From the sequence record NC_019725.1: a stretch of DNA of 50,552 nucleotides; one strand, given 5' to 3'. The stretch's first letter is position 1. Every line of letters starts with the position of its first letter. Below, in pieces: positions 24,491-43,035 of the stretch. The DNA is from Escherichia phage ADB-2. The notes under the pieces were generated by a model that was not told where the DNA came from, did no database searches, and saw nothing but the letters and a program-made list of their open reading frames with translations. Both the position numbers and the translations under genes were made by a program.

Positions 24491-24506
24491 GTATATAGGG
24501 GGTTAT

Positions 24507-27380: not shown

Positions 27381-27382
27381 TA

Positions 27383-27736
27383 ATGGCGACACTTGACACT
27401 TTCGGTTGGTGTACGCAGGTTCAAGGGGGCGGTGGCTCCCTTACCACTACCAATAATGACCGCTCCATCCAGTTTGGTAACGGCTACATGCAGCTTGCAT
27501 CATCTGGATTTAACACCACTCGACGCGAGTATTCAGTTGTCTATGCTGGGGAAGATTTCATGGCTGTTTACGACTTCTGCAACTCTCACCGCATTAAACC
27601 GTTCGCATGGACGCCGCCGGACGGGAAGATCGGAATATGGGTTGTCAAGCCCAACAGTTTGGGAGCGAAGCCAGTATCACGCGACGTGATGGAGATTAAC
27701 GTTACGTTTATGGAGCAGTTTACATCTATGGAGTAA
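27383..27736 (+). CDS. minor tail protein (lambda M-like)
   Basis: 117 aa immediately after tape measure, before L/K/I/J-like genes. Confidence 0.6.
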   Translation: MATLDTFGWCTQVQGGGGSLTTTNNDRSIQFGNGYMQLASSGFNTTRREYSVVYAGEDFMAVYDFCNSHRIKPFAWTPPDGKIGIWVVKPNSLGAKPVSRDVMEINVTFMEQFTSME

Positions 27737-27749
27737 CGACATATAACAA

Positions 27750-27775
27750 AAGCCCGCCTTGCGCGGGTTTTTTTG
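27750..27775 (+). terminator. rho-independent terminator
   Basis: CCCGCCTTGCGCGGG + TTTTTTT; followed by TGtAGAAT box. Confidence 0.8.
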
Positions 27776-27815
27776 TAGCTGTAGAATGGTTGCAGGTAAA
27801 CAAGAGGAAAAATCA

Positions 27816-28597
27816 ATGAGCGAAAACAAAAAACTTTATGATGAAGAAAGTGGAAGAAGCCTGTTTCACAACTGCCTACAATCACTGTATCCTGGTGAGA
27901 TAATCACCCTTATTGAGGTTGATGGTAGTAAGTTCGGCGCCAGGTGTACCGATTCCACGGTGAGAATATCCAGTACACTCCAGAAGAAATCATGCAGGCC
28001 CAGCAAACTGGAACGCTACCGCCGAAAGAAATTACATTCCGCGGCGAGAAATACGGGGCGCGACCTTTCGGTATATCCGGGATCTCATTTGACAGTTCAG
28101 GCAAGGCAACAAAACCACAATTAACGGTGGCAAACATTGATAGTCGCGTATCTGCGATGATTCGTGCATATAACGGACTAATGCAAGCTAAGGTGACTAT
28201 CTGGATAACTCAGCGTGATCTTATTAGCTCCGATGGCTCAATCGCTGATGGAGCTTACCGCAAACTGGTATACTATATCGAGCGTCCGAACTATGTTGAT
28301 AAAAGCGTTGCGCGGTTCGATCTCACATCACCTTACGATATGGACGGCATCATGATTCCGTCTCGACTCACGCAAAGCGTATGCTATTGGGCGCAGCGTG
28401 GATGGTATAAGACCGGGAAGGGCTGCGGATATAACGGGCAAAACGGTTACTTTGATAAAGACAATAATCCGGTAGATGATCCTTCACTGGACTTTTGCCC
28501 GGGTACGGTAACGTCCTGCCGCCTGAGATTCGGCGCAAACAATGAATTGGATTTTGGCGGTTGCGCTGTCGCTTCACTACAGAGGAAAAATCAATGA
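27816..28597 (+). CDS. minor tail protein (lambda L-like), frame disrupted near 27935-27945
   Basis: N-terminal ...IITLIEVDGSKFGA and continuation YRFHGENIQYTPEE...ITFRGEKYGARPFGISGISF...PQLTVANIDSRVSAM align to lambda gpL but in frames offset by -1. Confidence 0.65.
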
Positions 28598-29328
28598 TTA
28601 GTGCAAAAATTAAACTTGAAATTATGACTCACGCTCAGGAAGAATACCCCCGCGAATGCTGCGGGGTAGTCACCCAAAAGGGCCGCGTGCAAAAATACCA
28701 TCGCGTTGATAATGTACATCGCGATCCTGAGAATCACTTCATGATGGACGCAGTGCAATACGCATGTATTGAGGACGATGCGGAATCAACTACGATCGCA
28801 ATTGTTCATAGTCATACAGGAGACGGGGCTACAACTCTACCAAGCGCTCACGATACGTGCATGTGCAACGAGATGGAAGTTACCTGGATCATTGTTAGCG
28901 TGCCTGAAGGAGATATGCGATTTGTGAAGCCAGAGAAATTACCTCTGATTGGTCGTCCGTGGTCATTAGGATCATTCGACTGTTACGGTCTTGTTATGGC
29001 GTGGCACAAAGAGCACGGCGTAGAGTTACGCGATCGCCGATTGAATTTTGAATGGTGGAAACCGGAGTACGGAATTAATCTCTATCAGGATTATTACAAG
29101 CAAGATGGATTCGTTGAGATTCCAGATCAGAATAACCCATCATTCGGGGATATGGTAATCATGCAGATAGGGCAAAATGTTCCGGTATGGAACCACGCAG
29201 GCATTTACCTGGGTGATAATCAGATCTTGCATCACGCCTTTGGCAAACTTTCGCGACGCGATATCTATTCCGGCTGGTATCAGGATCATACTGTTTTAAT
29301 TGTTCGCCATAAGGATCTTAAATTATGA
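28594..29328 (+). CDS. tail protein (lambda K-like): JAB/MPN metalloprotease + NlpC/P60 domains
   Basis: JAMM motif HSHTGDGATTLPSAHD; C-terminal NlpC/P60-like FDCYGLV...H; ATGA overlap with upstream gene. Confidence 0.8.
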   Translation: MISAKIKLEIMTHAQEEYPRECCGVVTQKGRVQKYHRVDNVHRDPENHFMMDAVQYACIEDDAESTTIAIVHSHTGDGATTLPSAHDTCMCNEMEVTWIIVSVPEGDMRFVKPEKLPLIGRPWSLGSFDCYGLVMAWHKEHGVELRDRRLNFEWWKPEYGINLYQDYYKQDGFVEIPDQNNPSFGDMVIMQIGQNVPVWNHAGIYLGDNQILHHAFGKLSRRDIYSGWYQDHTVLIVRHKDLKL

Positions 29329-29924
29329 ATGATGTAAAAGTAATCAAATTATCAGGTTCACTTGGAAGGCGCTTCGGCGTCTTTCACAGATTCGCCGTTG
29401 ACTCTTACCCGGAAGCTATCCGGGCGCTATCCAGTCAGGTGGATGGATTCAAAGAATACATGCAAAGCGAGATAGGATCTCGTAGCAAGTTTGCAATATT
29501 TGTGGATGGCGTTAACGTTGGACACCATGAAGAGGAAAAATTCAAGTGCGCGAAAGAGATAAGAATCGTACCGATCCCTACTGGCTCTAAGACAGGAGGT
29601 CTATTCCAGGTTGTATTGGGCGCGGCAATAATGGTTGCAGCATTCTATACTGGCGGCGCGTCTCTGGCTTTAATGGGCACAATGTCCTCGTCTCTGTTTA
29701 TGATGGGCGGCGCTATGGTGCTGGGCGGCGTGATGCAGATGATTTCACCGCAGCCGGGTGGCGCAAACTTTGAAGTTCAATCAAGCAAGAATAAACCTTC
29801 GTACGCGTTCGGCGGTGCTGTCAATACGACGGCAGCGGGATACCCTCTCCCGGTCCCGTATGGATATCGCGCCGGAGGTGGCGCAACTTTCTCAGCAGGT
29901 TCTTATGCCGAGGATATGAGTTAA
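29325..29924 (+). CDS. tail assembly protein (lambda I-like)
   Basis: 199 aa; hydrophobic Gly/Ala-rich C-terminal half; position between K-like and J-like genes. Confidence 0.65.
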   Translation: MNDVKVIKLSGSLGRRFGVFHRFAVDSYPEAIRALSSQVDGFKEYMQSEIGSRSKFAIFVDGVNVGHHEEEKFKCAKEIRIVPIPTGSKTGGLFQVVLGAAIMVAAFYTGGASLALMGTMSSSLFMMGGAMVLGGVMQMISPQPGGANFEVQSSKNKPSYAFGGAVNTTAAGYPLPVPYGYRAGGGATFSAGSYAEDMS

Positions 29925-29929
29925 AATTA

Positions 29930-29953
29930 ACCCGCCTTGCGCGGGTTTTTTTT
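29930..29953 (+). terminator. rho-independent terminator
   Basis: CCCGCCTTGCGCGGG + TTTTTTTT. Confidence 0.8.
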
Positions 29954-29957
29954 CGCC

Positions 29958-29965
29958 TGTATAAT
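29958..29965 (+). promoter_or_regulatory. extended -10-like box TGtATAAT
   Basis: Immediately after terminator, 13 nt upstream of element copy 17 and 37 nt upstream of the J-like ATG. Confidence 0.4.
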
Positions 29966-29977
29966 GAGTCCACCGAT

Positions 29978-29998
29978 AAATAGCACAAAAAGGTAAAC
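29978..29998 (+). promoter_or_regulatory. conserved intergenic element (copy 17, degenerate)
   Basis: AAATAGCACAAAAAGGTAAAC. Confidence 0.45.
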
Positions 29999-30001
29999 AT
30001 C

Positions 30002-33000
30002 ATGATTCAAAAAGTGATAAGCGGATCTAAAGGCGGGTCACAGAAGCCTCATAACCCAGTTGAGATGGAGGACAATCTAATCTCAATCAACAAAATCAAG
30101 ATCCTGTTAGCTGTATCTGATGGTGAAATTGACGAAACATTCAGCCTGAAGCAGTTGATGTTTAACTCAGTTCCGGTGCAAAACGAGGATGGATCGTTCA
30201 ACTTTGAAGGGGTAAAGGCTGAGTTCAGCCGGGTACGCAGACTCAGGAATATATCAAGGGAATGGAAGATAGCTCTAGTGAGGTAACTGTAAATCGTGAG
30301 GTTACTACCGATAACCCATACACGATCTCAGTAACCAACAAAACGCTGTCGGCAATCCGTATAAAAATGTTCATGCCTCGCGGCGTACGAATTGAAAGTA
30401 ACGGCGATAAAAACGGCGTTCGCGTTGAGTACGAGGTGCAACAAGCTGTTGATGGTGGCTCGTTTGAGACGGTGCTCACCGATGTAATCGAAGGCAAAAC
30501 AATGTCAGGTTACGATAGAAGCCGTCGCGTAAACCTTCCGAACTTCAACAATCAGGTAATATTCAGAGTTGTTCGAAAGACTCCTGACTCCAGTGACTCG
30601 AATGTCGTTGATGCAATTCAGGTGAAAAGCTATGCCGAGGTGATTGATGCCAAATTCCGTTATCCTCTGACTGGTCTTCTTTTTGTCGAGTTTGATTCGA
30701 AAATGTTCCCAAATCAGCTACCTACGATCTCAATTCGTAAGCGCTGGAAGATTGTAAACGTTCCATCAAACTACGATCCGGAATCGCGAACCTACAACGG
30801 CAATTGGATGGGACTTTCAAGAAGGCGTGGACTAACAACCCGGCATGGGTTCTATACGACCTGATGATTAATCAGCGATACGGGCTGGATCAGAAGGAGC
30901 TTGGAATCTCCGTCGATAAATGGGCGCTTTATGAGGCGGCGCAATATTGCGACCAGATGGTTCCCGACGGGAAAGGTGGTACGGAGCCTCGCTACCTTTG
31001 CGACGTGATAATTCAGTCACAGACTGATGCGTACAAGGTGATTCGAGATATTTGCTCAATCTTTCGAGGTATGAGCTTTTGGAATGGCGAAAGCATTTCG
31101 GTAATCATCGACAGGCCGCGTGAACCTGCGTACATCTTCACTAACGACAACGTTGTTAATGGTGACTTCTCATATACGTTCGCAAGCGAAAAGAGTATGT
31201 ACACGACGTGTAACGTGATGTTTGATGATGAACAAAACATGTATCAGCAGGACGTTGAGCCAGTATTCGATCGTGAGGCTACTCTACGGTTTGGTAACAA
31301 CGTAACGAGTATTACGGCGATCGGATGCACGCGTCGAAGCGAGGCTAACCGACGAGGACGATGGATTCTGAAAACCAACCTCCGCAGCACTACGGTAAAC
31401 TTCGCGACCGGGCTTGAGGGCATGATCCCGACAATAGGTGATGTTGTGGCAATAGCCGACAACTTCTGGTCAAGCAACTTAACTATGAACCTATCAGGGC
31501 GCTTGCTTGAAGTGTCTGGAAGCCAGATTTTCTTGCCGTTCCGTGTGGATGCGCGCGCAGGTGACTTTATTATCGTAAATAAGCCCGACGGCAAGCCCGT
31601 GAAGCGCACAATCTCAAGTGTTAGTGCGGATGGTAAGACTATAGAGGTTAACATTGGCTTTGGCTTTCCTGTGAAGCCTAACACGGTATTCGCTATCGAC
31701 CGCACCGACATTGCGCTACAACAGTACGTCGTGACAAAAATCGATAAGGGCGATGATGACGAGGAATTTACCTACAAAATCACGGCGGTGGAGTACGATC
31801 CTAACAAGTACGACGAGATTGATTACGGTGTGAACATCGACGACCGACCGACGAGTATCGTTGAACCAGACCAAATCCCTAGACCGGAAAACGTGCAAGT
31901 GTCATCTGAGTCACGAATCGTCCAGGGGATGAGCGTAGAGACGATGATTGTTAGCTGGGATAAAGTTCCGTACGCTGTTTTCTATGACGTGCAGTGGCGA
32001 AAAGATAACGGAAACTGGCAAAATGTACCTCAGACGGCAAACAAAGAGGTTTACGTTGAGGGTATTTACGCTGGCAACTATCAGGTTCGCGTGCGCTCCG
32101 TCGCTGGTTCGGGTACGACTTCGGGCTGGTCAAATATCGTCGCGGCAACGTTGACGGGTAAACAGGGTGAACCGGGACGACCGATTAACCTTACAGCTAC
32201 GGATGATGTTGTTTTTGGTATCCGTACAAAATGGGGGTTCTCTGATGGTTCTGGAGATACGGCATATACAGAGTTGCAACAGTCACCAGATGGAACAGTG
32301 GATAACGCAAGTTTGCTTTCTTTGATTCCATACCCGCAGCATGAGTATTATCACTCACCGATGCCGGGAGGGAATATTGTGTGGTATCGGGTAAGGACGG
32401 TTGACAGGATCGGTAACGTGTCTCAGTGGACTGATTTTGTCAGAGGCATGGCATCAACAAACGTTGACGATATCATTGGGGAGATTTCTGTCGATATCGA
32501 AAACTCGCCGGGTTACGAGTGGCTTGTTGATAACGCAACCGACAACGCGGCGCAGAACGCAGCGAACGCAGAGGCAGCAATTGAGAACGCACTAGCTAAT
32601 GACAAAGACGCGATCTACATGAAGAAGGAGAACGGAAAACGAAAAGCAGAGTACACCAAATCACTGCAACTAATTGCTGATGAGACTCAGGCGCGAGTAA
32701 CAGCAGTCGAGCAATTGAAGGCAAGTTTTGGAGATCAGATTAGCGCAAGCAACAGCGAATTGCGTGAAGTTATCGCAACTGAAACTGAGGCTTTATCGAG
32801 TGAGATTGATCAGCTTAAGGCTCAGATTGGTGACGATATTCAGGCGAGTTTGACCGATATCCGCAAGGCTATCGCAAATGAAACTGAGGCGAGAACGCAA
32901 GCCGACTTGGCGTTAAGTGCGAGGCTTGGGGATAATGAGGCGGCGCTTGCTCAAAAATTAGACTCTTGGAGCAATGCCAGTTCTACCGGGGCAATGTACG

Positions 33001-33419
33001 GCGTCAAGCTGGGTCTGAAATACAACGGGCAGGAATATAGCGCAGGCATGGCTATGTCTCTGATTGGTTCCGGCGCAGCTGTTAAGGCGCAAATTCTATT
33101 CGAGGCGTCACGATTTGCAATCATGACAGGGATGAACGGTCAGACTCAGTATCCTTTCGTTGTTGAAGGTAATCAGGTGATTCTTAATAGCGCCATCATT
33201 AAGAACGGATTCATCACGAATGCGATGATTGGTAATGTTATTCAATCGAATAACTATGTCGTTAACAAGGCTGGCTGGAGACTTGACAAGGGTGGAACAT
33301 TCGAAAACTACGGAAGTGACGGTGAGGGTGCAATGAAACAAACTAACACCACAATATCTGTTAGGGATGCGAATGGTCGCCTGAGGGTTCAGATTGGCAG
33401 GTTGACTGGCTCATGGTAA
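30002..33419 (+). CDS. central tail fibre / host specificity protein (lambda J-like), two frame disruptions (~30232 and ~30808)
   Basis: Three consecutive ORFs in frames each offset by -1; segments align colinearly to lambda gpJ (e.g. SRTYNGNW|DGTFKKAWTNNPAWVLYDLM vs lambda QYSGIWDGTFKPAYSNNMAWCLWDML; DKWALYEAAQYCDQMVPDGKGGTEPRY). Confidence 0.8.
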
Positions 33420-33425
33420 TATCAA

Positions 33426-33450
33426 GGGCATCGAGAGATGCCTTTTTTTG
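33426..33450 (+). terminator. rho-independent terminator
   Basis: GGCATC-GAGA-GATGCC + TTTTTTT. Confidence 0.8.
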
Positions 33451-33461
33451 GAGGATTTATT

Positions 33462-33766
33462 ATGGCGTACGGTATATCAACTTGGGACGCAAATGGCGTT
33501 TATAATAACTATGGAATTAAGCCCGTTACGGTTGTTGGTTGGAACTTCTTGTCAGCAGGCCAGAATTCAGCATCGTTCAGCTATCAAGTGCCTCCTGGTA
33601 TGCATGTGACTACGTTATAAGCCTTGACGATGGCGCCATTAGTGGGCCTGGCAGGAAAATTATTGCTAGCGGTAATACGATAACAGTAACGCCAACAAAC
33701 TCACCTGGGCCAAACGTGTACCCATCATCAAACTGCTACTTAATAGCATATCTGGAGAATGATTAA
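33462..33766 (+). CDS. hypothetical tail-associated protein (frame disrupted ~33608), paralog of next gene
   Basis: MAYGISTWDANG... N-terminus similar to MSYGAFIDVNGN... of 33766..34455; two ORF pieces offset by -1. Confidence 0.4.
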
Positions 33767-34455
33767 TGTCATACGGTGCTTTTATAGATGTAAACGGAAA
33801 CCCATTCATAACCCCGTTATCCACGCCATTCGCCTTATATGCGAGAGGGGAAATTCAATCAGTAAATGTTAGTGGTTCACAGGTTGCGGAGAGATATGTT
33901 CGGATACCTACAGGTGTTCCGGTTATAGCTTTTTGCAAAACAACAAACACGCAGCAGGGGACCGCGCTTTCAGCCTTTACTTTCAGAAGCGGACCCAATG
34001 TTGGAACTGTTTATATAAGGGGGACAAATCCAGCAAACCAATCATACACGCTAACATATTACATATTTGCCATATTTGAGCAGTCACTACCGAGCTGGGG
34101 TATGGCAATATGGGATGCGTCAGGAAAGCTAGTGCTGACAAATGAGACAAAAGTCCTTAGTGATTTGGTTACAATCGGCACTCCTGGGTACGCTGGCGGT
34201 GGGCTAAACATAGACGCAACACTCAGCGGAAGCTACGCAGTTGTCCCAACTATACTTGGCAACTATCAAGTTGTTATCGGCAGATTGCCAACTGGGCAAC
34301 CCATAATAGGAAACTCGACAGCAGGCAGTTCATGCAGATACAACGGGAGCACAACGAGAATAAATGCAGCAGCAACCACTGCGGCAGGTCAGATAATGAA
34401 CACTACGAATAATGGAAATATTATAACAGCAATAAAAACGGCAGCATACGACTAA
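33766..34455 (+). CDS. hypothetical tail-associated protein (possible receptor-binding accessory)
   Basis: 229 aa, Gly/Thr/Asn-rich; last gene of tail block. Confidence 0.45.
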   Translation: MSYGAFIDVNGNPFITPLSTPFALYARGEIQSVNVSGSQVAERYVRIPTGVPVIAFCKTTNTQQGTALSAFTFRSGPNVGTVYIRGTNPANQSYTLTYYIFAIFEQSLPSWGMAIWDASGKLVLTNETKVLSDLVTIGTPGYAGGGLNIDATLSGSYAVVPTILGNYQVVIGRLPTGQPIIGNSTAGSSCRYNGSTTRINAAATTAAGQIMNTTNNGNIITAIKTAAYD

Positions 34456-34480
34456 GCCCCTTTCGGGGCTTTTCTTTTAC
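34455..34480. terminator. terminator hairpin between convergent genes
   Basis: AGCCCC-TTTC-GGGGCT + TTTCTTTT. Confidence 0.65.
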
Positions 34481-34704
34481 ATCGAGCAATCGTGAGACTT
34501 GAAGTTATTCTCTGATACGTAATGGAATGAGAATGGATACCCAGCACGTAACAGCATCTCATCACCGCGCATCTTTGATCCAAAAACGGAAACCAAGTAC
34601 TCTGCGTCACCTGATTCATAAATCGCAGTACAAGTGCGCTCAGGCATCGATGAGCAACCAGTCAGGATGAATGCCGCAGCAATAATGGTGATTAATTTTT
34701 TCAT
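34477..34704 (-). CDS. small lipoprotein, candidate superinfection-exclusion protein (Cor/Llp-like)
   Basis: MKKLITIIAAAFILTGC... lipoprotein signal with lipobox LTGC; 75 aa; located directly after tail genes on opposite strand as in T1/phi80/T5. Confidence 0.6.
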   Translation of the reverse strand: MKKLITIIAAAFILTGCSSMPERTCTAIYESGDAEYLVSVFGSKMRGDEMLLRAGYPFSFHYVSENNFKSHDCSM

Positions 34705-34770
34705 TTGCACGTCCTCGTCGTTAGTGTGATTGCATTGTATGTCGCATTTACTTTTATTGCAATAGCGCAA

Positions 34771-35230
34771 TTACAATTTTTTCGTGTAACGGGTGTCTAT
34801 TTTTGTAATCGGAGATGGTGTTACAAAATCCACCCCATCAGAACGCAGGTAGATATGATAAAAACTCTATATAATATATATAGATAGATAATATTTAATT
34901 TTAGCTTTATATATATAATTATTGTTGTGTAACAGTTGTCTATCATGTAACAGGTGATTTGATTGATTCGTCAAATTTCTATCATATATGTTCAAAATTT
35001 AATCAATCTTGATTCTATTCATGGATATCTGTGTATTTCTAAGAAAAAGCGGTTACAAGTATTACGAAATAGACACCACATAAAAACAGGATTAAGCCAT
35101 TGATTCTGTTGATGCTGATTGTAACTTGAACGATATAGACACGCTATTACACACCAATTACATGTATCCGATTGACTAAACGCTGTTAATGGCTATAATG
35201 GATTCATCGTAAACGAAGGAGATAAGCGCA
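34771..35230. promoter_or_regulatory. second AT-rich repeat-rich intergenic region
   Basis: No convincing ORF; shares GTGTCTAY/ATAGACAC, TAACAGTTGTCTA and GATTGATTG words with region 3223..3854. Confidence 0.5.
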
Positions 35231-36295
35231 ATGTTCCAGGTATTCACATCAAGTCAGCTTTCTAATGACGAGTATCATAGCAACGAAGGTTGGGCGGCAG
35301 AGTATGTAAGCGGATCGAGCCTTGCAGAAATTTATCAAACTTGCCCGGCTAACTGGCGATTCAAGAAGAACGAGACTACTAAAGCGCTGGAGTTCGGTAC
35401 TCAGTCGCACACTAACTTTGAGAGTCGAGATCTGTTTACTGCAACGTATGCGCGTTGTCCTGCTCCGTCAGAGTTTAAAGATCTTATTACTTCGCAAACG
35501 GCACTGGCAGCAAAATTAAAATCTTTTGGCCTGAAAGGTACATCCGGTAAGCAGTACCCTGACCTCATCAAAATGATGGTTGATTGCGGTGAAGATCTCA
35601 ATGTTCAATATCTTATTGAACTGATTGCTGAAGCTGAGGCGCGCGCTGAAGGAAAGCAACTGGTTGACGCTGATAAATATGATGCCTGTATGAAGATGAG
35701 GGCCATTCTTGAGCAAAATCCCGATCATGAAGCGTGCATCAATAGCGAAACTGCGCAGCGTGAGATCTCAATCTTCGGTGAGATATCCGGCGTCAAGGTT
35801 AAGGTTAGACTTGACCATCTGGACTACAAAGAGAATGTACCAGGTCGTGTGCTGACTGGTTATGATGAGAATGGAGATCCGGTATTCGAAGACGTTATTT
35901 TCCCGGAAGCACTGATTATCACCGACTTCAAAACAACGATGAGCGCAAATCCGTTGGAGTTCCCGCGCCTTGCATATAATCACGGGTATTATCTGAAAAT
36001 GGCCTTGCAGCATGATCTGCTACGACGCGCAATCCAGGCTGGCGCTTTTGAAGGCAACTTCCCTGAAGATATCCCGATCGTAGTTAGATTGCTTGCGCAG
36101 GAGAAAAAAGAGCCTTATATCGCACTGGCTTACCGTATGACTATGGAGCAAATCAGGATCGGTCGTAACCAGTACATTAGCGTAGTCCACACTTACAAGG
36201 CTTGCTCTGAAATGGATGTTTGGCCTGGGTACGCTGGCGACGCAAGCGAGATCGAACTTGAAACGCCATCATGGGTGCGTTACCAAAATAAGTAA
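35231..36295 (+). CDS. PD-(D/E)XK-family recombination exonuclease
   Basis: 354 aa; RLDHLDY...ITDFKTT resembles D...(D/E)xK nuclease core; first gene of exonuclease-Erf-SSB module. Confidence 0.6.
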   Translation: MFQVFTSSQLSNDEYHSNEGWAAEYVSGSSLAEIYQTCPANWRFKKNETTKALEFGTQSHTNFESRDLFTATYARCPAPSEFKDLITSQTALAAKLKSFGLKGTSGKQYPDLIKMMVDCGEDLNVQYLIELIAEAEARAEGKQLVDADKYDACMKMRAILEQNPDHEACINSETAQREISIFGEISGVKVKVRLDHLDYKENVPGRVLTGYDENGDPVFEDVIFPEALIITDFKTTMSANPLEFPRLAYNHGYYLKMALQHDLLRRAIQAGAFEGNFPEDIPIVVRLLAQEKKEPYIALAYRMTMEQIRIGRNQYISVVHTYKACSEMDVWPGYAGDASEIELETPSWVRYQNK

Positions 36296-36369
36296 ACGGC
36301 ACAAATAGCTAAACAAATAATTAATGAGGTGTTATAATGCACCTCATACACCAATCAGGAGAAGTTAAG

Positions 36370-37017
36370 ATGCAATTATCACCAGAAACAAACGAAATCC
36401 TTCCGGCTCTGTTCAACGCTCGCAACAAATTTGCTAAAGCAAAGAAGGATGCAAAAAACAATCACCTGAAAAATTCATACGCAACGCTTGATGCGATGAT
36501 GGCGGCAGTAAGCCCAGCGCTAACCGATAACGATATCATGATCCTGCAATCAATGCTGGATACAAGCACGGAAACGACCTTCCACCTTGAAACTATGCTG
36601 ATTCACAAATCCGGGCAGTGGGCCAAATTCTTCATGATGATGCCTATTGCAAAACGCGATCCGCAAGGCGTAGGATCTGCAATGACTTACGCTCGACGCT
36701 ACTCACTCGCTGCGGCGTTGGGGATTAGTCAGAGTGATGACGATGCTCAGCTTGCAGTGAAATCTGTAAAGGACTGGAAAAAAGAACTTGATGCGTGTGA
36801 AGACATCGAATCACTGAAAGATGTGTGGGCCAACGCTTACCGACAGACGGACACGGCGAGCAAGTCAATCATTCAGGATCACTACAACGCACTTAAGGCT
36901 AAGTTTGAGATCGGTAAAGCTCGTGGCATTCGCCCAGCGCAACCGGAACAGAAAAAACAGGTTGAAGCAACGAGCGCGAAGACTGTACAATCTCAATCAA
37001 TCACCAACTTCGAATAA
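36370..37017 (+). CDS. erf: ERF-family single-strand annealing protein
   Basis: GSAMTYARRYSLAAALGI hallmark of ERF superfamily; preceded by CCAATCAGGAGA leader. Confidence 0.75.
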   Translation: MQLSPETNEILPALFNARNKFAKAKKDAKNNHLKNSYATLDAMMAAVSPALTDNDIMILQSMLDTSTETTFHLETMLIHKSGQWAKFFMMMPIAKRDPQGVGSAMTYARRYSLAAALGISQSDDDAQLAVKSVKDWKKELDACEDIESLKDVWANAYRQTDTASKSIIQDHYNALKAKFEIGKARGIRPAQPEQKKQVEATSAKTVQSQSITNFE

Positions 37018-37062
37018 TCACCAGGCGACTTCGGTCGCCCATAAATTTTAGGAGAGAAAATC

Positions 37063-37479
37063 ATGCATATTATCACTGGCGAGATCAGAAAAGAACCTAA
37101 GATTCTGGAACGTAACGGCGGGAATACTTATATCATCGAACTGGCAGAAAGCTACAAGCCTCGTGATGGCGATCGCGAATACACAAACTATACATTCTTT
37201 TTTAGTGACGGTGGAAAGCCCGGACTTGCTGACTGGTATCGTGATGCATTCCAAGTTGGTAGAGTGATCTCAGTATCTTGCGAGACGTTGAAGATCTCAT
37301 CCCGCGAGCACAACGGAACGGTTTACAATTCATTGCAGGCTGCTGATTTTCCTAAGTTGGTATTCAGCCAACGAGGGCAAGGTAATCAACAACACCGAGC
37401 ACCTCAGCAACAACAAAGCGCCCAGCAACAGCCACAACCAAATCCTCAGTCAACTTTTGACGATGATATCCCATTCTGA
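37063..37479 (+). CDS. ssb: single-stranded DNA-binding protein
   Basis: 138 aa; Gln/Pro-rich linker and canonical C-terminal tip DDDIPF. Confidence 0.85.
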   Translation: MHIITGEIRKEPKILERNGGNTYIIELAESYKPRDGDREYTNYTFFFSDGGKPGLADWYRDAFQVGRVISVSCETLKISSREHNGTVYNSLQAADFPKLVFSQRGQGNQQHRAPQQQQSAQQQPQPNPQSTFDDDIPF

Positions 37480-37484
37480 CAACA

Positions 37485-37508
37485 AAAAGGGGCCAACTGG
37501 CCCCTTTC
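37485..37508. terminator. bidirectional terminator between convergent ssb and tail-fibre genes
   Basis: AGGGGCCAACTGGCCCCT hairpin; T-run on the minus strand side. Confidence 0.7.
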
Positions 37509-37510
37509 AT

Positions 37511-39373
37511 CTACCCTCTCAATTCTGAAATTATCTCCTTGAGTTCTTCAATTTCTGCCGCCATTCTCTTACATTCACGAATCGCATATTGTGCGCACCC
37601 CATCAAGTCCATCACGATAGGGTTAACGTCTACCGATGGACGGTCGCGCGTCTTACCCCCGACGATGGCGTTAGTCTCGGGGTCCACCTCCACATCGTAC
37701 GTCTCCTCACGGTGTTTGATGTATTGAGGTGCAATCTCTTCGGCCTCTTCGGCAATTATGCCGAAGCGGACGCGCTCCTGCACATCGTCCTTATATACGT
37801 AGTGCACCATGCGCATTTGTTCAATGCGTGCAACCGCTTCTGTAACGTCTGCATCGGAGATATCTTTCTTAAAGTCCCGCCCCGATGTGCCTTGCAAGGC
37901 AAGAACACCACCAGATGAAGGCCAATTGACCGTAAAGCCAGTGCCGTCGCCCTTCTCAAAATATTTATAGATGAGGTTACTATTGATGTTAACCGTATCC
38001 CACATCGTACGAAAGTTACCAGCCGGTACTGACTCTTTCCCGTTGTTTAGGACGAAAGACAACACTGAAGCTGTCGCTGTTGGGCGGACCGTGATATCTC
38101 GATGACAAACCAGGCCGCTCACCCCCGATCCAGAGATCTCCATAAAGGTATCGCGGTACGCGCCCGACGCGTCATATGCGTGCCACTTAAAATTACCCGC
38201 GGCGTCGTTAATCCCCATGCGCCAGCGTACTTTATCGGCGGAATCAGCCCAACATACGCCACCAAAGCCCGACCCGCTCTGCTTAAGGATTAATCCATCT
38301 TGGGAGTCTCCGTTAGATTTGAATTGGCGGAACTCGGCGACGTTATCGACGCGCCCGGTGCCACCTGATCCAATCGGCAGCGGAATAGCTTTTCCGCTGG
38401 CATTATCCCAAGCCCCCCAATCACTATTATCTTTTATGTAAATCCATTTTGATTTAGATTTTGTTTTTACCTGCGTCTCTCCGTTATTCTCAGATTGAAC
38501 AAACCTATCTACACCTAAATTCTCCACTGCCGCACCAATACTTGATAAGTCGCTTAGGTTGGCATTCTTCTTAAGAAGATTGGATGCATCAACGCTATTT
38601 GCTGCGTCTTTAGCTTCCTGTGCGCTGACTGCCGCTGCATCTTTTGCGCTAACCGCTGTATCACGCGCCGACTGTGCATCATTTTTTGCTGAGGTTGCAG
38701 TTTGCGCAGCCGTCTGAGCATTGTTAACGTAGACTGACAGATCGCCTTTTGCGTCATTGATTGCCTGAATTGCCGCCGCCTCTTCTGTGTCGATGTGCGC
38801 AACCGCCGCTGATTCTTTAGCGCCTACATCTGTGATAGCTTGGTCTTTTGCTGCATTGATGCTACCGACCGCTCCGTCAACAATTTGCTGTACCTGACCT
38901 TTAGTGGCATTAGCCTCGTCACGCGCTGCATTCGCTGAGTCGCGAGCAAGTTCAGCTTGATTCTGTGCAGATTCAGCGGCTGATTTGTTAGCCTTAATTT
39001 CTTCAACGATGCGGTTAAGGTTATCCATATCCAGGCTCGCAATGATATCCATTGCCCCTGCAATCTCAGTCTCTTTGCTTTGATAGTACCGAAGCGTCTC
39101 GGCAACGTTTTGAGCCAATCCGTTAACAGTCAGTGAATCGTTAAGCAAGATCACATACTTTCCGTCAGCGGCAGTCTGACCATCAGTAGAGATAGCCTTT
39201 AACTCTGTGTCGCTCACGATGTCGCTGATTACCGCCAGCTTAATCGGTTGCTCTAGGAATACGATAGTTGCACCGACTCTAATCAGAGCAAGCTGATCTT
39301 TCCATTTTGTGTCGGTTCCGTGAACCGTTCCGTCTGCATCCATTGATGCTGTGCCGCGTCTATATAAAGCCAT
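37511..39373 (-). CDS. tail fibre protein with C-terminal intramolecular-chaperone (peptidase S74-like) domain
   Basis: 620 aa; Ala/Asp/Gln-rich repetitive shaft; C-terminal ...RFGIIAEEAEEIAPQYI... resembles the self-cleaving chaperone domains of T5 L-shaped fibre/endosialidases; AAGGAG RBS. Confidence 0.7.
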   Translation of the reverse strand: MALYRRGTASMDADGTVHGTDTKWKDQLALIRVGATIVFLEQPIKLAVISDIVSDTELKAISTDGQTAADGKYVILLNDSLTVNGLAQNVAETLRYYQSKETEIAGAMDIIASLDMDNLNRIVEEIKANKSAAESAQNQAELARDSANAARDEANATKGQVQQIVDGAVGSINAAKDQAITDVGAKESAAVAHIDTEEAAAIQAINDAKGDLSVYVNNAQTAAQTATSAKNDAQSARDTAVSAKDAAAVSAQEAKDAANSVDASNLLKKNANLSDLSSIGAAVENLGVDRFVQSENNGETQVKTKSKSKWIYIKDNSDWGAWDNASGKAIPLPIGSGGTGRVDNVAEFRQFKSNGDSQDGLILKQSGSGFGGVCWADSADKVRWRMGINDAAGNFKWHAYDASGAYRDTFMEISGSGVSGLVCHRDITVRPTATASVLSFVLNNGKESVPAGNFRTMWDTVNINSNLIYKYFEKGDGTGFTVNWPSSGGVLALQGTSGRDFKKDISDADVTEAVARIEQMRMVHYVYKDDVQERVRFGIIAEEAEEIAPQYIKHREETYDVEVDPETNAIVGGKTRDRPSVDVNPIVMDLMGCAQYAIRECKRMAAEIEELKEIISELRG

Positions 39374-39392
39374 AGTATAAACTCCTTAAGTA

Positions 39393-39412
39393 AATAGCAC
39401 GAATTGCTAAGC
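39393..39412 (+). promoter_or_regulatory. conserved intergenic element (copy 18, plus-oriented between minus-strand genes)
   Basis: AAATAGCACGAATTGCTAAGC. Confidence 0.5.
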
Positions 39413-39452
39413 ATAGATTTTATCATTGTGATACACGCCTTGCAATGGGCAA

Positions 39453-39474
39453 TAAAAAACCGCCCGAAGGCGGT
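39453..39474 (-). terminator. rho-independent terminator after primase gene
   Basis: minus strand reads ACCGCCTTCGGGCGGT + TTTTTTATT. Confidence 0.75.
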
Positions 39475-40409
39475 TAGAGTAGGTCACTTGCTGAGAATAA
39501 CTTGGATTGCATTCCTGAGCGGTATCCTCCAGGGTTCGGGATTATTATTTTTAATTGTCGGTCGTCTGCCATGTATAAAGTCTCCTTGTCCGAAGGTTCG
39601 CACGCCACTCTTACTTCTCGATCACCTTTATACCTGTACGCAACCATTTCTAAGTTTTCAGGAGTGAAGCAGGCCCATACCTCTTGCTTTGTGTGAAATG
39701 CAATATGCTGAGCATCAATCCAATTAAGGCATAAGTAGATCGCCTTCTCAGTTTTACCAGTCACGGCAACCGAGCAACTCGTATATTTCTTCGCGTAAAA
39801 TGATTCTCTTCCTTCCTCATCAATAATCAAAATATTGCAAAACTCATCATCAAGCCCGTCCTCATGCACAAGTTGACACGGAATGGTGTGAAACACGCTC
39901 TCCCCGCCATCTTCTCGACGTTTTACGCCAACGTCGAATGATTCAGTGGGTAGTGACTCAAAAATACTTAGGGGTGTGTTTACGCGCTTCTCTGTACGCT
40001 CCATAACTTTCATTACCGCCTCATGATCTGCCATCATGACATTGACACCTGATACCGGAGTTCGGCGCGCTTTCTTGTTTGCCTTGACAATGTATTCCTG
40101 CGGAACCTTGCCGAGAAATCTACCCAGGATATTTATGCATTCGCTATACGGCATACCAGTTAATTTCATCAACCAACCTATCCCGGAGTCGTTACCGCAT
40201 GAGTTGCAGATCGCGCCGCCGTCGCCTGGAGTGTTAAGATTGTCAGTCCAGCGAAAGCGGTCCTTACCTCCGCAGTTAGGGCAGGGCTGGTGTTTCTTGT
40301 TGAATACCTCGTTCGGCAACCCGCAGACTGACTGAAAAGCATCGCGCCATAAACCTTTCATGTACGGCAAAACATCCTCTTTCTGAAACATCATAAATTC
40401 TTCGTTCAC
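39474..40409 (-). CDS. DNA primase (zinc-ribbon + Toprim-type)
   Basis: 311 aa; CPNCGGKDRFRW...CNSCGN zinc-binding motif typical of phage primases; GGAGA RBS before GTG start. Confidence 0.65.
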   Translation of the reverse strand: MNEEFMMFQKEDVLPYMKGLWRDAFQSVCGLPNEVFNKKHQPCPNCGGKDRFRWTDNLNTPGDGGAICNSCGNDSGIGWLMKLTGMPYSECINILGRFLGKVPQEYIVKANKKARRTPVSGVNVMMADHEAVMKVMERTEKRVNTPLSIFESLPTESFDVGVKRREDGGESVFHTIPCQLVHEDGLDDEFCNILIIDEEGRESFYAKKYTSCSVAVTGKTEKAIYLCLNWIDAQHIAFHTKQEVWACFTPENLEMVAYRYKGDREVRVACEPSDKETLYMADDRQLKIIIPNPGGYRSGMQSKLFSASDLL

Positions 40410-40431
40410 TTCCAGATCTCCAAAATAAAAA

Positions 40432-40462
40432 ACGCGTAGAAGGATGTTAACCCGCTACGCGT
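40432..40462 (-). terminator. hairpin with flanking T-run between regulator-like gene and primase (attenuator-like)
   Basis: ACGCGTAG...CTACGCGT 8-bp stem, 15-nt loop; T-rich on minus strand after stem. Confidence 0.35.
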
Positions 40463-40467
40463 CGTTT

Positions 40468-40488
40468 GTTTTAACTAAAAATGCTATT
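40468..40488 (-). promoter_or_regulatory. conserved intergenic element (copy 19)
   Basis: rc = AATAGCATTTTTAGTTAAAAC; overlaps stop of 40471..40923. Confidence 0.55.
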
Positions 40489-40923
40489 AGTCGTTCCGAT
40501 ATCTTCCTTCTTCACGACGCGCATAAATTTCTTGTTCTTGCATCGCTTCTCAAGGCACTTGCCGTTACCGTCAAACTTCAGGTCGAATCGCAACCATGCG
40601 GCCCTAAACCCTTTACACCCCTGTCGGCGGTAAGCGCGATGCGCAGCTTCAGCACCTTGCCATGAAATCATATTGCGTTCTTTCCAGCCTTGCACCGTCT
40701 GATTGCTAACTTTTAGAGCCTTTGCGCAGGCCGCTGGGCCACCGTAATATTCGATAAGAGCATCAAGTCGCGCTCGCAGTCCGGCGCGTGTTTCTTCTTT
40801 ATGAATATAGAACCCACATCTCTGGCGAGGCCTTTTGTCTTTACCTCGTCGCGTTCCGTTGTTACCATTAATGTGACGTTTATCGATTTCACCAGTTGAC
40901 TCTGCGATACGTTGCATATTCAT
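40471..40923 (-). CDS. putative DNA-binding regulator (HTH-like segment, Cys-rich C-terminus)
   Basis: 150 aa from ATG with AGGAGAA RBS; segment GGPAACAKALKVSNQTVQGWKERN resembles Cro/YdaS-type HTH; basic; transcribed divergently from helicase. Confidence 0.4.
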   Translation of the reverse strand: MNMQRIAESTGEIDKRHINGNNGTRRGKDKRPRQRCGFYIHKEETRAGLRARLDALIEYYGGPAACAKALKVSNQTVQGWKERNMISWQGAEAAHRAYRRQGCKGFRAAWLRFDLKFDGNGKCLEKRCKNKKFMRVVKKEDIGTTNSIFS

Positions 40924-40935
40924 CTCAATTCTCCT

Positions 40936-40956
40936 GTAGCACTTTTTGCTAAAAAC
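40936..40956 (+). promoter_or_regulatory. conserved intergenic element (copy 20)
   Basis: GTAGCACTTTTTGCTAAAAAC, 15 nt upstream of TGtATTAT box (40972-40979). Confidence 0.6.
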
Positions 40957-41017
40957 GTTTACTGTATGTCGTGTATTATAGCGTAAACGATACAACGATT
41001 CAAAGGATTAAATAGCC

Positions 41018-43035
41018 GTGACAATTAACATCAAAAAGCAAATCGCATTACTTGGCGATGACTACATAAAACGCACTCAAGATCGATTCACTGTCGGCGA
41101 GGTCGTTCCTTACCCGTACCAAGTTGTTGCTTATGCCGAGATCGCGAAACGCCTATCAAATTATGAGCATCCATTCTTCGTTAAAGCGTCTGTATCAGCA
41201 GGTAAGACAATCATCTTCGCTATGGTGGCAAAGCAGTGTCAGAAAATGGGCTTAAAAATGCTCGTTCTTGCTCGTCAGGGTGAGATTGTCGATCAGGATA
41301 GTGAGGAGATTGACAACTTCGGGGTAACTAATTCCATATTCTCAGCCTCATTAGGTATTAAGTCCTGCTACTTCCCGATCGTGTTGGATCTGAGGGTACG
41401 GTTGCAAATGGCCTAGATAATGAGTTGGCTGACTTCGTCCCGCATGTAATTGGGATCGACGAATGTCATCAGGTGGATTGGGAAGACCTTGCGCAAGCCA
41501 TTGATGGCAAGGAAACAATGGAACAAATGAGGGGCGAGAAAGGGAAAATTATCATGGACGGAGATATTCCTCTGATTGGTAATGATGGAAAACCTCTTCT
41601 TGGAACTAAGCGCAGCCAGTACACTATAGTAATCATGGAAATGATGCGACGCTGTAAAGAGGTTCACGGGCACGATCTTAGAATATTTGGTATGACTGGA
41701 TCTGAATTTCGTGGCGTAGTTCCTATTCTGGTAGAGAATCCGAAAGCATTGGGATTCTGGCGTGAGCGAGTAACTGATATCGACACAAACTATCTGATTG
41801 AGTTCGGCTCTGTCGTTCCGACTATATTCGGATCAACAGACGGAGTTCATTACGATCTGGATAAGTTCAAGGCGTCGAGCGAGGACGGAGTGCAGGACTT
41901 TACAGAGAAAGACATGAAGGCTATGGAAGATGAGATCCTTCATGATAAATCTCTTACTCAGCGAATCATGCAAATGGTTGCCAAAAAGGCTGAAGAGCGT
42001 AACGCGGTACTGATTACATGCGCCGGGGTGCGTCACTGTAAAGAGGCGGCGGCTGCACTTCCACCTGGAAGTACCTATGCAATTATCACTGGCGAAACAG
42101 ACACCAAAACGCGCAAGAAGATTCTGGACGATGTAAGGGCAGGAAAAATTAAATACACCTTTCAGGTAATGGCGCTCACTACTGGCGTTAACGTTCCAAA
42201 TTGGGATTTCAGTGTCATACTCCGCAAGATAGGGTCGCTAACACTGTTGATTCAACTTTTGGGTAGGGGTATGCGTCTGCTTAAATCATGGCAGGTTGCT
42301 GAGGGAATGGTTAAGCAGGACCATCTGGTATGGGATTTCGCAGGTACGATGGATGAGTTGGGTCAGCTTTATTTCGATCCGATACTTGAGCAGGCGCAAT
42401 TCCAAAAGCGTTTTGAAAACGGAAAAGACCCGAAAACGTGTCCGAAGTGTGGTTGCGTAAATAGCTTCTACGCTCGCAGATGCATTAACGTCATCGACGG
42501 CGAGCGTTGCGATCATTTCTGGACTTCTCAGATTTGTGAGGACCAGGTTGACGAGCGCACAGGAAAAATCCTTGTTAAAGGATGCGGTGCAGAGAATGAC
42601 GTTGTGGCCCGAGTCTGTCGTTGTTGTGATGTTTCGCTTGTCGATCCTAACCTGAAGTTATCCGGTAAGGCGTACACTAAGAATGACTGGTATGAAGTAA
42701 AGAATTTTGAGGTTACGCTAACCAAAAACCAGAAAGGCATAATATACAAATACACGCTGATTAACGACGATGGTGATGAGTTCAAGGCGTATGAAAAATT
42801 CTTCCCCGAGTCAGACTCTAAGATTTGCGGTACGCTATGGAAAACGAAAGGTGTATTACCTCATGTGTCAGATCCTAAAATGCGTCGCTACTTTATCGGA
42901 ATGAAGAACGCTATCAAGATCGTGCAATACTCTCATCATATAGCGCATCCGGTACGCGTTACTCATAGGCGCAACCAGAAGAAGGAAGATATTATTTCAC
43001 GCAAAGATTTCGGTATGGAGGATATCCCGGAATGA
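41018..43035 (+). CDS. superfamily-2 DNA helicase with C-terminal zinc-ribbon (frame disrupted near 41365-41400)
   Basis: N-terminal ORF has Walker A SAGKT; continuation in -1 frame has DExH box GIDECHQ and later CPKCGC/CRCCD zinc-ribbon motifs. Confidence 0.75.

What the first reader, a model, noticed from the sequence alone, without database searches (positions are those of the whole stretch)
34477..34704. Cor/Llp-like lipoprotein gene placed after the tail genes on the opposite strand
The 75-aa product has a classic lipoprotein signal (MKKLITIIAAAFILTGC). Its location directly downstream of the J-like region on the opposite strand matches where T1, phi80 and T5-like phages place outer-membrane lipoproteins that block their own receptor. 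Which receptor it would mask cannot be read from sequence.
Basis: partly seen in the sequence, partly recalled or inferred. Interest (0 to 1): 0.45.

Follow-up and report, generated by a model that had tools for sequence, protein, structure and literature searches.

The report
T1-type Cor exclusion lipoprotein gene
This is the ordinary, already described cor gene of a T1-like coliphage: a small outer-membrane lipoprotein that very probably switches off the phage's own receptor, FhuA, so that infected cells and their debris no longer take up FhuA-dependent phages.

Summary
The ORF is real. It lies at 34704..34477 on the minus strand and encodes 75 aa with a signal peptide and lipobox (LTG|C17).

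It is the orthologue of phage T1 cor:
- 88% aa identity to T1 Cor and 98.7% to vB_Henu5_2 Cor.
- Full-length match above the curated cut-off to NCBIfam NF047972 "phage exclusion lipoprotein Cor", and to PHROG 1119.
- dN/dS of 0.13 against T1.

The window is a Tunavirus (about 93% nt identity to T1) with T1 gene order: J, two small tail-tip genes, then cor convergent on the other strand.

The linked cassette is the FhuA type of T1, phi80 and HK022. Sister tunaviruses such as SH6 carry an Rtp45/LptD-type lipoprotein with a different RBP at the same site. That swap junction falls exactly on the lipobox Cys codon.

Verdict: already known, low interest.

The parts
34477..34704 (-). cor coding sequence (75 aa precursor, stop included): superinfection-exclusion lipoprotein Cor
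   Evidence: ORF. PHROG 1119, E 7e-30, full length. NCBIfam NF047972, 55.9 bits against a cut-off of 31. 88% identity to T1 Cor. dN/dS 0.13.
34654..34704 (-). Signal peptide (codons 1-16) plus the lipobox cysteine codon 17 (34656..34654). This is the conserved 'backbone' part of the gene.
   Evidence: LPAM_1 matches residues 1-18. The 17 residues are identical to those of the unrelated SH6 gp50 lipoprotein. Nucleotide homology to SH6 ends at 34654.
34477..34653 (-). Mature Cor domain (residues 18-75), with invariant C25 and C73 and the A-G-Y-P-F motif
34712..34716 (-). Shine-Dalgarno GAGGA, 7 nt before the ATG
   Evidence: Read from the sequence. Invariant in T1, Henu5_2 and SH6.
34734..34762 (-). 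Sigma-70-like promoter candidate TTGCAA-17 nt-TACAAT for cor
   Evidence: Consensus scan, 9 of 12 matches, not significant on its own. Fully conserved in T1, Henu5_2 and SH6.
34454..34471 (.). GC-rich hairpin between the convergent tail-tip genes and cor. It is a good intrinsic terminator for the + strand (tail TTTTCTTTT) and has only a weak T tail for the cor strand.
   Evidence: Conserved in T1 and Henu5_2, with one loop substitution in T1.
33766..34455 (+). 229-aa tail-tip cassette protein. The BASEL analysis treats it as a bona fide RBP-locus gene; databases annotate it 'membrane associated protein'.
   Evidence: 97% identity to the T1 protein. About 52% identity to phi80 gp23 and its HK022 homologue. 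No Pfam family.
33438..33766 (+). Small cassette gene (phi80 gp22 / T1 101-aa homologue). In this window it is split by a 1-nt deletion at about 33609.
   Evidence: ORFs 33438..33620 and 33539..33766. Indel against T1, Henu5_2 and CLB_P3.
30002..33419 (+). J-like tail tip gene, broken into three ORFs by 1-nt deletions at about 30228 and 30806. The last ~55 codons (from 33254) belong to the exchangeable receptor module.
33254..34653 (.). Exchangeable receptor-specificity module: J C-terminus, two cassette genes and the mature Cor domain. In SH6-type tunaviruses an LptD-type module replaces it.
   Evidence: blastn of the window against SH6: homology runs 28765..33253 and 34654..35801 only. SH6 carries PF24052 plus DUF6453 there.

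Best explanation
The gene is the cor orthologue of a Tunavirus (T1-like, virulent siphophage).

Proposed mechanism:
1. It is transcribed by host RNA polymerase from its own conserved sigma-70-like promoter.
2. The 75-aa precursor is exported, diacylglyceryl-modified on Cys17 and cleaved by signal peptidase II.
3. [quoted passage not shown]
4. The 59-residue mature domain is a small beta-barrel-like fold, probably clamped by a C25-C73 disulfide. It binds the periplasmic side of the TonB-dependent transporter FhuA, the receptor of T1-type phages.
5. As T5 Llp does, it locks FhuA in a conformation that its receptor-binding proteins cannot use. This excludes superinfecting FhuA-dependent phages and keeps progeny from being wasted on debris.

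Shown here: gene reality, family membership, lipoprotein signal, purifying selection, T1 synteny, Llp-like predicted fold, and linkage to the FhuA-type tail-tip cassette.

Inferred: expression timing, outer-membrane localisation, the disulfide, direct FhuA binding and the allosteric mechanism.
For: - Family membership: PHROG 1119 'Cor superinfection exclusion protein', E 7e-30, full length. NCBIfam NF047972 (equivalog), 55.9 bits against a cut-off of 31. 88% identity to annotated T1 cor and 33% to phi80 cor.
- Phage identity and gene order: the window is about 93% identical to T1 over 20 kb and has the same gene order.
- Conserved residues: C17, C25, C73 and G55-Y56-P57 are invariant across 29 homologues down to 33% identity.
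- Selection: dN/dS of 0.13.
- Link to FhuA: the neighbouring 229-aa gene is 97% identical to T1's and about 52% to those of phi80 and HK022.
- Literature: Cor inactivates FhuA and excludes FhuA-dependent phages. Llp binds FhuA from the periplasm, and Cor is expected to act alike (PMC9586334; bioRxiv 10.64898/2026.03.26.714494). An AF3 model of a T1-like Cor docks on the periplasmic side of FhuA with ipTM 0.84, and the three-gene cor cassette tracks FhuA use in BASEL phages (PMC13164509).
Against: - No experiment exists on this protein. As far as the papers I read show, the functional work was done on Cor of temperate phages (phi80, N15, HK022, mEp167), not on T1 Cor itself.
- The Foldseek E-values against the PDB are not significant. 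The best is 0.05 and Llp scores 0.16, although Llp has the best TM-score and rmsd.
- Llp lacks the AGYPF motif that is nearly invariant in Cor, so the contact surface may differ.
- The title of Arguijo-Hernandez et al. [quoted passage not shown] The paper itself was not available to me. This suggests the mechanism may not be a simple one-to-one copy of Llp.
- The promoter call is a weak consensus match (9 of 12).
Confidence: 0.85

Rival explanations
1. Cor does block FhuA-dependent phages, but not in the Llp manner. It would act through, or need, other outer-membrane proteins (for example porins or OmpA), or alter FhuA indirectly, rather than bind the periplasmic face of FhuA one-to-one.
For: [quoted passage not shown] The Cor-specific AGYPF motif is absent from Llp.
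Against: The fold and cysteine pair are shared with Llp. A published AF3 model of T1-like Cor on the periplasmic side of FhuA has ipTM 0.84 (PMC13164509). The mature domain is exchanged together with the receptor-binding cassette, which argues for receptor-specific recognition.
Confidence: 0.1
2. It is a superinfection-exclusion lipoprotein aimed at another receptor (LptD, BtuB, YncD and so on) rather than FhuA.
For: Small siphophages carry analogous lipoproteins for other receptors. Sister tunaviruses have an Rtp45-type (LptDE-binding) lipoprotein at this very site, with the identical signal peptide (PMC12685063). Cor-like proteins are reported in BtuB-using phages (PMC13164509).
Against: The window's protein matches PF24052 (Rtp45 family) only over the signal peptide, at 15.2 bits against a cut-off of 27, and matches 9RPS_D only over residues 3-23. 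It is 88% identical to Cor of T1, the classical FhuA (tonA) phage. Its linked cassette is 97% T1-like.
Confidence: 0.03
3. It is a lysis lipoprotein (an outer-membrane spanin component), not an exclusion protein. One database record (vB_EcoS_Chapo) labels the homologous gene 'u-spanin'.
For: Weak PHROG hits to Rz-like spanins, E 0.011 to 0.39. The annotation under hit H192.
Against: Those hits cover only the signal peptide, residues 1-25. The gene is not in the lysis cassette: in the related phage CLB_P3, holin and lysin lie about 12 kb from cor. There is no i-spanin partner. T1-type phages are described as using a unimolecular spanin in the lysis module (PMC13164509).
Confidence: 0.01
4. It is a decaying, functionless relic of temperate-phage lysogenic conversion carried by a virulent phage.
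For: Cor was defined in temperate phages, and the original T1 record calls it a 'lysogenic conversion protein' (H177). The window has many frameshifts nearby.
Against: dN/dS is 0.13, with 17 synonymous changes against T1. The gene is intact in all tunaviruses examined. Promoter and RBS are conserved. The frameshifts are genome-wide isolated 1-nt deletions typical of sequencing error, and none lies in cor. The virulent phage T5 uses Llp in the same way (PMC9586334).
Confidence: 0.02

Closest known systems
Cor of coliphage T1 (Tunavirus T1; QEG04368.1, annotated 'super-infection exclusion protein, cor')
   Same: 88% aa identity over all 75 residues, with the same length. The promoter, RBS and hairpin are the same, as is the position after J and two cassette genes on the opposite strand.
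   Different: Nine amino-acid substitutions, eight of them in the mature domain. Nothing is different in kind.
Cor of temperate FhuA-dependent phages phi80, N15, HK022 and mEp167 (NCBIfam NF047972 'phage exclusion lipoprotein Cor')
   Same: The same family by a curated threshold. They share the lipobox, the two internal cysteines and the AGYPF motif. They have the same three-gene cassette after J: phi80 gp22, gp23 and cor.
   Different: Only about 33-38% identity. phi80-type Cor has a 3-residue insertion before the first internal Cys. In phi80, cor is co-oriented with J and is expressed from a prophage. Here it is convergent and sits in a virulent phage.
Llp, lytic conversion lipoprotein of phage T5 (PDB 8A60 chain B, 7QJF)
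   Different: It is not detected by single-sequence search and is not a member of NF047972. It lacks AGYPF. Its partner RBP is pb5 (oad), which was not among the hits of the 229-aa cassette-protein search, and the two genes are divergent.
Rtp45 / PF24052 'Phage lipoprotein family' (LptDE-directed exclusion protein; PDB 9RPS chain D), e.g. SH6 gp50
   Same: It occupies the identical genomic slot in sister tunaviruses. The promoter, RBS and 17-residue signal peptide are identical. It has the same general role, as an exclusion lipoprotein matched to the phage's receptor (PMC12685063).
   Different: The mature domain is unrelated. It targets LptDE, not FhuA. It is co-transcribed with a DUF6453 RBP on the same strand.

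Membership tests
Cor exclusion lipoproteins (NCBIfam NF047972 / PHROG 1119) | Full-length match to the curated family profile above its cut-off | tested here: met
   NF047972: 55.9 bits against a cut-off of 31, residues 1-74 on profile positions 1-77 of 78. PHROG 1119: E 7e-30, residues 1-74.
Cor exclusion lipoproteins (NCBIfam NF047972 / PHROG 1119) | Lipoprotein signal peptide with lipobox Cys and a non-Asp residue at +2 (outer-membrane sorting) | tested here: met
   MKKLITIIAAAFILTG|C17-S18. LPAM_1 at 20.2 bits against a cut-off of 20. Actual lipidation and localisation were not tested.
Cor exclusion lipoproteins (NCBIfam NF047972 / PHROG 1119) | Conserved pair of internal cysteines and the (A)GYPF motif in a mature domain of about 58 aa | tested here: met
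   C25, C73, G55, Y56 and P57 are invariant in 29 sequences down to 33% identity. They are also present in phi80 Cor.
Cor exclusion lipoproteins (NCBIfam NF047972 / PHROG 1119) | Encoded just after the J-like tail-tip gene, together with the two-gene FhuA-type cassette | tested here: met
   The order J, small gene, 229-aa gene, cor is the same as in T1, Henu5_2 and phi80. The small gene carries an apparent sequencing frameshift.
Cor exclusion lipoproteins (NCBIfam NF047972 / PHROG 1119) | Expression excludes FhuA-dependent phages and inactivates FhuA transport | not testable with these tools
   This needs plating, adsorption and ferrichrome or albomycin assays. It is reported for Cor of temperate phages (cited in bioRxiv 10.64898/2026.03.26.714494).
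T5 Llp (lytic conversion lipoprotein) | Recognisable sequence similarity to Llp | tested here: inconclusive
   phmmer against PDB finds no Llp hit. The Cor profile hits 8A60_B at E 1e-4, but over residues 1-44 including the signal peptide. hhalign gives 95.6% probability and E 1.3e-8 over 71 columns. Llp does not match NF047972. This indicates a remote homologue, not a family member.
T5 Llp (lytic conversion lipoprotein) | Llp fold (small beta structure with an intramolecular disulfide) | tested here: met
T5 Llp (lytic conversion lipoprotein) | Paired with, and divergently transcribed from, a pb5 (oad)-type receptor-binding gene | tested here: not met
   In T5, llp is divergent from oad. Here the neighbours are the T1/phi80-type 229-aa and small cassette genes, and they are convergent.
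Rtp45 / PF24052 phage lipoprotein (LptDE-directed) | Match of the mature domain to PF24052 / 9RPS_D | tested here: not met
   PF24052 at 15.2 bits against a cut-off of 27, residues 3-25 only. 9RPS_D at E 1.5, residues 3-23 only. The positive control, SH6 gp50, gives 87.3 bits and E 1.1e-9 to 9RPS_D.
Spanin outer-membrane lipoprotein (Rz1-like / u-spanin) | Profile match beyond the signal peptide, and location in the lysis cassette | tested here: not met
   PHROG spanin hits have E of 0.011 or worse and cover residues 1-25 only. Holin and lysin lie elsewhere in the related genome CLB_P3.

The most novel reading that the evidence does not exclude
Tunaviruses may use the conserved promoter, RBS and signal-peptide coding segment of the exclusion lipoprotein as one homology arm, and the J gene as the other, for swapping whole receptor modules. 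A module comprises the J C-terminal ~55 aa, the RBP gene(s) and the mature exclusion domain. The right-hand junction sits exactly on the lipobox cysteine codon. One generic export and lipidation signal therefore serves unrelated mature domains: Cor for FhuA and Rtp45-type for LptD. This would make receptor specificity and its matching self-exclusion function a single portable cassette. It would also suggest a ready design rule for retargeting T1-like phages. Modular RBP loci are already described (BASEL, PMC8594841). The codon-precise junction inside the lipoprotein gene is something I did not find stated in the papers I read.
Probability: 0.5. Interest if true: 0.35.

Novelty: already known. 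Interest (0 to 1): 0.1.

Why it matters
For this window it matters little. The gene is the known cor of T1-like phages, correctly annotated in many GenBank records. Its practical value is predictive. Together with the adjacent cassette, it marks this phage as FhuA-dependent. It also predicts that infected cells, or cells expressing the gene, become refractory to T1, T5, phi80 and other FhuA-dependent phages, and probably to FhuA-dependent uptake of ferrichrome, albomycin and colicin M. The side observation that the Cor-type and Rtp45-type mature domains are exchanged behind an identical signal peptide is a tidy illustration of receptor-module shuffling. It could guide engineering of phage host range.

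Tried and rejected
- Single-sequence search of PDB sequences returned only designed armadillo-repeat proteins (4RV1, 4HXT). No individually significant stretch was present, so the hits are spurious.
- The exhaustive representative search (14 hits) included long repetitive proteins P0040, P0046 and P0048 that match through many weak repeats. P0040 and P0046 were inspected and dismissed. P0048 was not inspected and is dismissed by analogy.
- Pfam has no Cor family. Only LPAM_1 and a sub-threshold signal-peptide match to PF24052 were found.
- Spanin reading: rejected.
- I tried to identify the source genome. NC_019725 (ADB-2, the same length of 50,552 bp according to Table 1 of PMC10373560) is not in the collection. 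SH6 has the same length but a different cassette.
- The Rtp paper by Wietzorrek et al. (PMC1367250) is not held.
- Searches of the BASEL main text for 'cor' and 'LeonhardEuler' found nothing usable.
- Rfam at gathering threshold: no RNA family anywhere in the window.
- The gapped motif GTAAC-N4-GTCTAT is not enriched genome-wide beyond chance. Only the clustering of the 8-mer GTGTCTAT is notable.
- I could not measure the C25-C73 distance because model coordinates are not exposed.

Full report
**1. The observation**

The minus strand carries an ORF with ATG at 34704 and its stop codon at 34479..34477.

The mechanical ORF list extends it upstream to a TTG at 34770. The ATG is the credible start for two reasons. 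It is preceded by GAGGA (34716..34712) with a 7-nt spacer. It also gives a textbook lipoprotein precursor: MKK, a hydrophobic core, lipobox L-T-G-C17, then Ser at +2. Pfam LPAM_1 matches residues 1-18 at 20.2 bits against a cut-off of 20.

Two + strand genes (33438..33766 and 33766..34455) and a GC-rich hairpin (34454..34471) lie between J (ending at 33419) and this gene.

**2. It is a real, conserved gene**

- tblastn finds homologues in 194 phage records, from 98.7% down to about 29% identity.
- Against T1 the gene has 17 synonymous and 10 non-synonymous differences, giving dN/dS of 0.13.
- It has no indels against T1 or vB_Henu5_2, although the window carries many single-base deletions elsewhere.

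**3. What the window is**

Positions 22000-42000 are about 93% identical at the nucleotide level to T1 and to many other Tunavirus genomes. The gene order around the finding is that of T1 and vB_Henu5_2:

1. J-like tail tip gene
2. a gene of about 100 aa
3. a gene of 229 aa
4. cor, on the opposite strand
5. exonuclease VIII, Erf-like recombinase and SSB

The T1 record annotates the homologous gene as 'super-infection exclusion protein, cor'.

**4. Family membership**

- The protein matches PHROG 1119 'Cor superinfection exclusion protein' over its full length, E 7e-30.
- It matches the curated NCBIfam equivalog NF047972 'phage exclusion lipoprotein Cor' at 55.9 bits against a cut-off of 31.
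- It is 88% identical to T1 Cor over all 75 residues, and about 33% (tblastn) to 38% (alignment) identical to phi80 Cor.
- In an alignment of 29 homologues down to 33% identity, the invariant positions are M1, G16, C17, C25, V38, G55, Y56, P57, F68 and C73. These cover the lipobox cysteine, two further cysteines and a GYP(F) motif.

**5. Relationship to T5 Llp**

- A single-sequence search of PDB sequences does not find Llp. Its only hits are spurious designed repeat proteins.
- Llp does not match NF047972.
- A profile of the Cor family hits Llp (8A60_B) at E 1e-4, partly through the signal peptide.
- Profile-profile comparison gives 95.6% probability, E 1.3e-8, over 71 columns. C25 and C73 align to the two internal Llp cysteines. 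PMC9586334 states that the intramolecular disulfide is shared between Llp and Cor.
- An AlphaFold2 model built from the 29-sequence alignment has mean pLDDT 85, with block means of 94-96 over residues 21-70 of the mature domain.
- Foldseek E-values are not significant, but Llp has the best TM-score and rmsd.
- Among predicted viral structures, the nearest are a Dhillonvirus exclusion protein and 'receptor-blocking' lipoproteins of T5-like phages.

So the protein is a Cor by membership and Llp-like by fold. This agrees with two recent papers that reached the same view for T1 and KanT1 Cor (bioRxiv 10.64898/2026.03.26.714494; PMC13164509).

**6. Which receptor**

It can be read with fair confidence, on three lines of evidence.

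(a) The protein is 88% identical to Cor of T1, the classical FhuA phage.

(b) The adjacent 229-aa gene is 97% identical to T1's. It is about 52% identical to the corresponding genes of phi80, HK022 and the mEp phages. The BASEL study showed that allelic variants of this locus downstream of gpJ match the terminal receptor without exception (PMC8594841). PMC13164509 reports that the full three-gene cor cassette occurs in FhuA-using BASEL phages.

(c) There is a natural negative control. Shigella phage SH6 and many other tunaviruses share this backbone but carry a different lipoprotein at the same site.
- SH6 gp50 matches PF24052 at 87.3 bits.
- SH6 gp50 matches the LptDE-binding exclusion protein Rtp45 (9RPS_D) at E 1e-9.
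- A DUF6453 protein is encoded next to it (PMC12685063).
- The window's protein matches PF24052 and 9RPS_D only over its signal peptide.

**7. A neat detail of the swap**

The signal peptides of the window's Cor and SH6 gp50 are identical: MKKLITIIAAAFILTGC. Nucleotide identity between the window and SH6 runs through the promoter, RBS and signal-peptide codons. It stops exactly at the Cys17 codon (34656..34654). On the other side, homology resumes at 33253, about 55 codons before the end of J.

The exchanged module is therefore 33254..34653. It holds the J C-terminus, the cassette genes and the mature lipoprotein domain.

The 177-bp promoter and signal segment is found at 88-99% identity in 59 Tunavirus records. 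Some of these are annotated Cor and others 'lipoprotein'. The co-transfer of the mature exclusion domain with the receptor-binding genes is itself evidence that the mature domain is receptor-specific.

**8. Expression signals**

A sigma-70-like TTGCAA-17-TACAAT (34762..34734) lies upstream. It is a weak consensus match in its own right but is invariant in T1, Henu5_2 and SH6.

The hairpin at 34454..34471 is a good terminator for the incoming + strand tail genes. It has only a poor T tail in the cor direction.

In SH6 the same promoter is the only conserved promoter candidate upstream of the lipoprotein and the RBP gene that follows it on the same strand. It is therefore probably not restricted to the earliest phase of infection. 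This point is an inference.

**9. Mechanism**

The following steps are inferred from established lipoprotein biogenesis rules and from the solved FhuA:Llp complex (PMC9586334):

1. Export and lipidation at C17.
2. Cleavage by signal peptidase II.
3. [quoted passage not shown]
4. Binding to the periplasmic face of FhuA.
5. Allosteric closure of the extracellular loops, so that FhuA-dependent phages cannot adsorb or inject productively and progeny are not lost on debris.

None of this was or could be tested here. As far as I could read, the functional work on Cor was done with temperate-phage proteins. The authors of the recent Llp preprint state that the molecular mechanism of Cor is still not elucidated.

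The main mechanistic rival is an indirect action involving other outer-membrane proteins. This is suggested by the title of Arguijo-Hernandez et al. 2018, cited.

**10. Verdict**

It can be sharpened to: cor orthologue of T1, directed at FhuA. The finding is already known and of low interest. The only mildly new item is the codon-precise module junction at the lipobox cysteine.

**11. Other things seen**

- **Apparent sequencing errors.** J is split into three ORFs, and the small cassette gene into two, by isolated 1-nt deletions. Such deletions occur all over the window relative to CLB_P3, mostly in short homopolymers. They look like sequencing errors.
- **Possible source genome.** The window length of 50,552 bp equals that listed for phage ADB-2, which is absent from the searchable collection.
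- **Clustered motif.** The 525-bp AT-rich region between cor and the exonuclease gene is highly conserved. It holds all three genome-wide copies of GTGTCTAT and three of the five copies of TGTTACA. These are plausibly operator sites in a divergent promoter region.

Noticed in passing
window 33254..34653, compared with L004 (SH6, NC_047785 28992..30353): The receptor module is exchanged as a block between tunaviruses. It comprises the last ~55 codons of J, the cassette genes and the mature lipoprotein domain. The right junction falls exactly on the lipobox Cys codon (34656..34654). As a result, unrelated mature domains (Cor versus the Rtp45/PF24052 type) share an identical promoter, RBS and 17-residue signal peptide. 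59 Tunavirus records share the promoter and signal segment, with either type of lipoprotein behind it.
   Followed up: partly
window about 30228, 30806 and 33609 (and, for example, 7320, 12321, 13530, 15477, 22188, 23593, 41384, 47608): Isolated single-base deletions relative to T1, Henu5_2 and CLB_P3 split J into three ORFs (30002..30286, 30262..30864, 30804..33419). They also split the small tail-tip gene into two (33438..33620, 33539..33766). The same kind of uncompensated 1-nt deletion, mostly in short homopolymers, is scattered over the whole window. They are probably sequencing or assembly errors rather than pseudogenes.
   Followed up: partly
whole window (1..50552): The window length of 50,552 bp equals the genome length listed for Tunavirus ADB-2 (NC_019725) in Table 1 of PMC10373560. 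That accession is missing from the phage collection. SH6 and ISF001 have the same listed length but carry the LptD-type cassette. The window is probably the complete ADB-2-like genome.
   Followed up: partly
window 34705..35230: This is the 525-bp AT-rich, highly conserved region between cor and the exonuclease VIII gene, which are divergently transcribed. It contains all three genome-wide copies of GTGTCTAT (34793, 35069, 35135) and three of the five copies of TGTTACA. It also has a long TATATA-rich palindromic stretch (34871..34919) and a strong + strand promoter match, TTGACT-16-TATAAT (35172..35199). It looks like a regulated divergent promoter or operator region. No regulator was identified.
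   Followed up: partly
phage collection hits: Homologues of the 229-aa cassette protein occur in 111 Klebsiella phage records at about 33% identity, but only 2 Klebsiella records have a detectable Cor. Either their exclusion lipoprotein is too diverged to detect, or that cassette works without one.
   Followed up: no
hits H15, H62, H113 (Campylobacter phage A14b, A15b, A131): Several records labelled Campylobacter jejuni phages (7 to 8 per search) carry T1-like cor, cassette or Rtp45-like genes typical of Enterobacteriaceae Drexlerviridae. This suggests mislabelled or contaminating coliphages in those deposits.
   Followed up: no
hit H192 (vB_EcoS_Chapo, MT682715) and H177 (T1, AY216660): Annotation of the homologous gene is inconsistent across GenBank. 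It appears as 'u-spanin', 'lysogenic conversion protein', 'hypothetical protein', 'lipoprotein' and 'Cor'. The u-spanin label is almost certainly wrong.
   Followed up: no
L005 (phi80) 3456..3689, L006 (T5) 2501..2734: The orientation of the exclusion gene relative to the receptor-binding genes differs between lineages. It is co-directional in phi80, divergent in T5 and convergent in T1-type Cor cassettes. In the SH6-type cassette it is upstream of the RBP gene on the same strand (probably one operon).
   Followed up: yes
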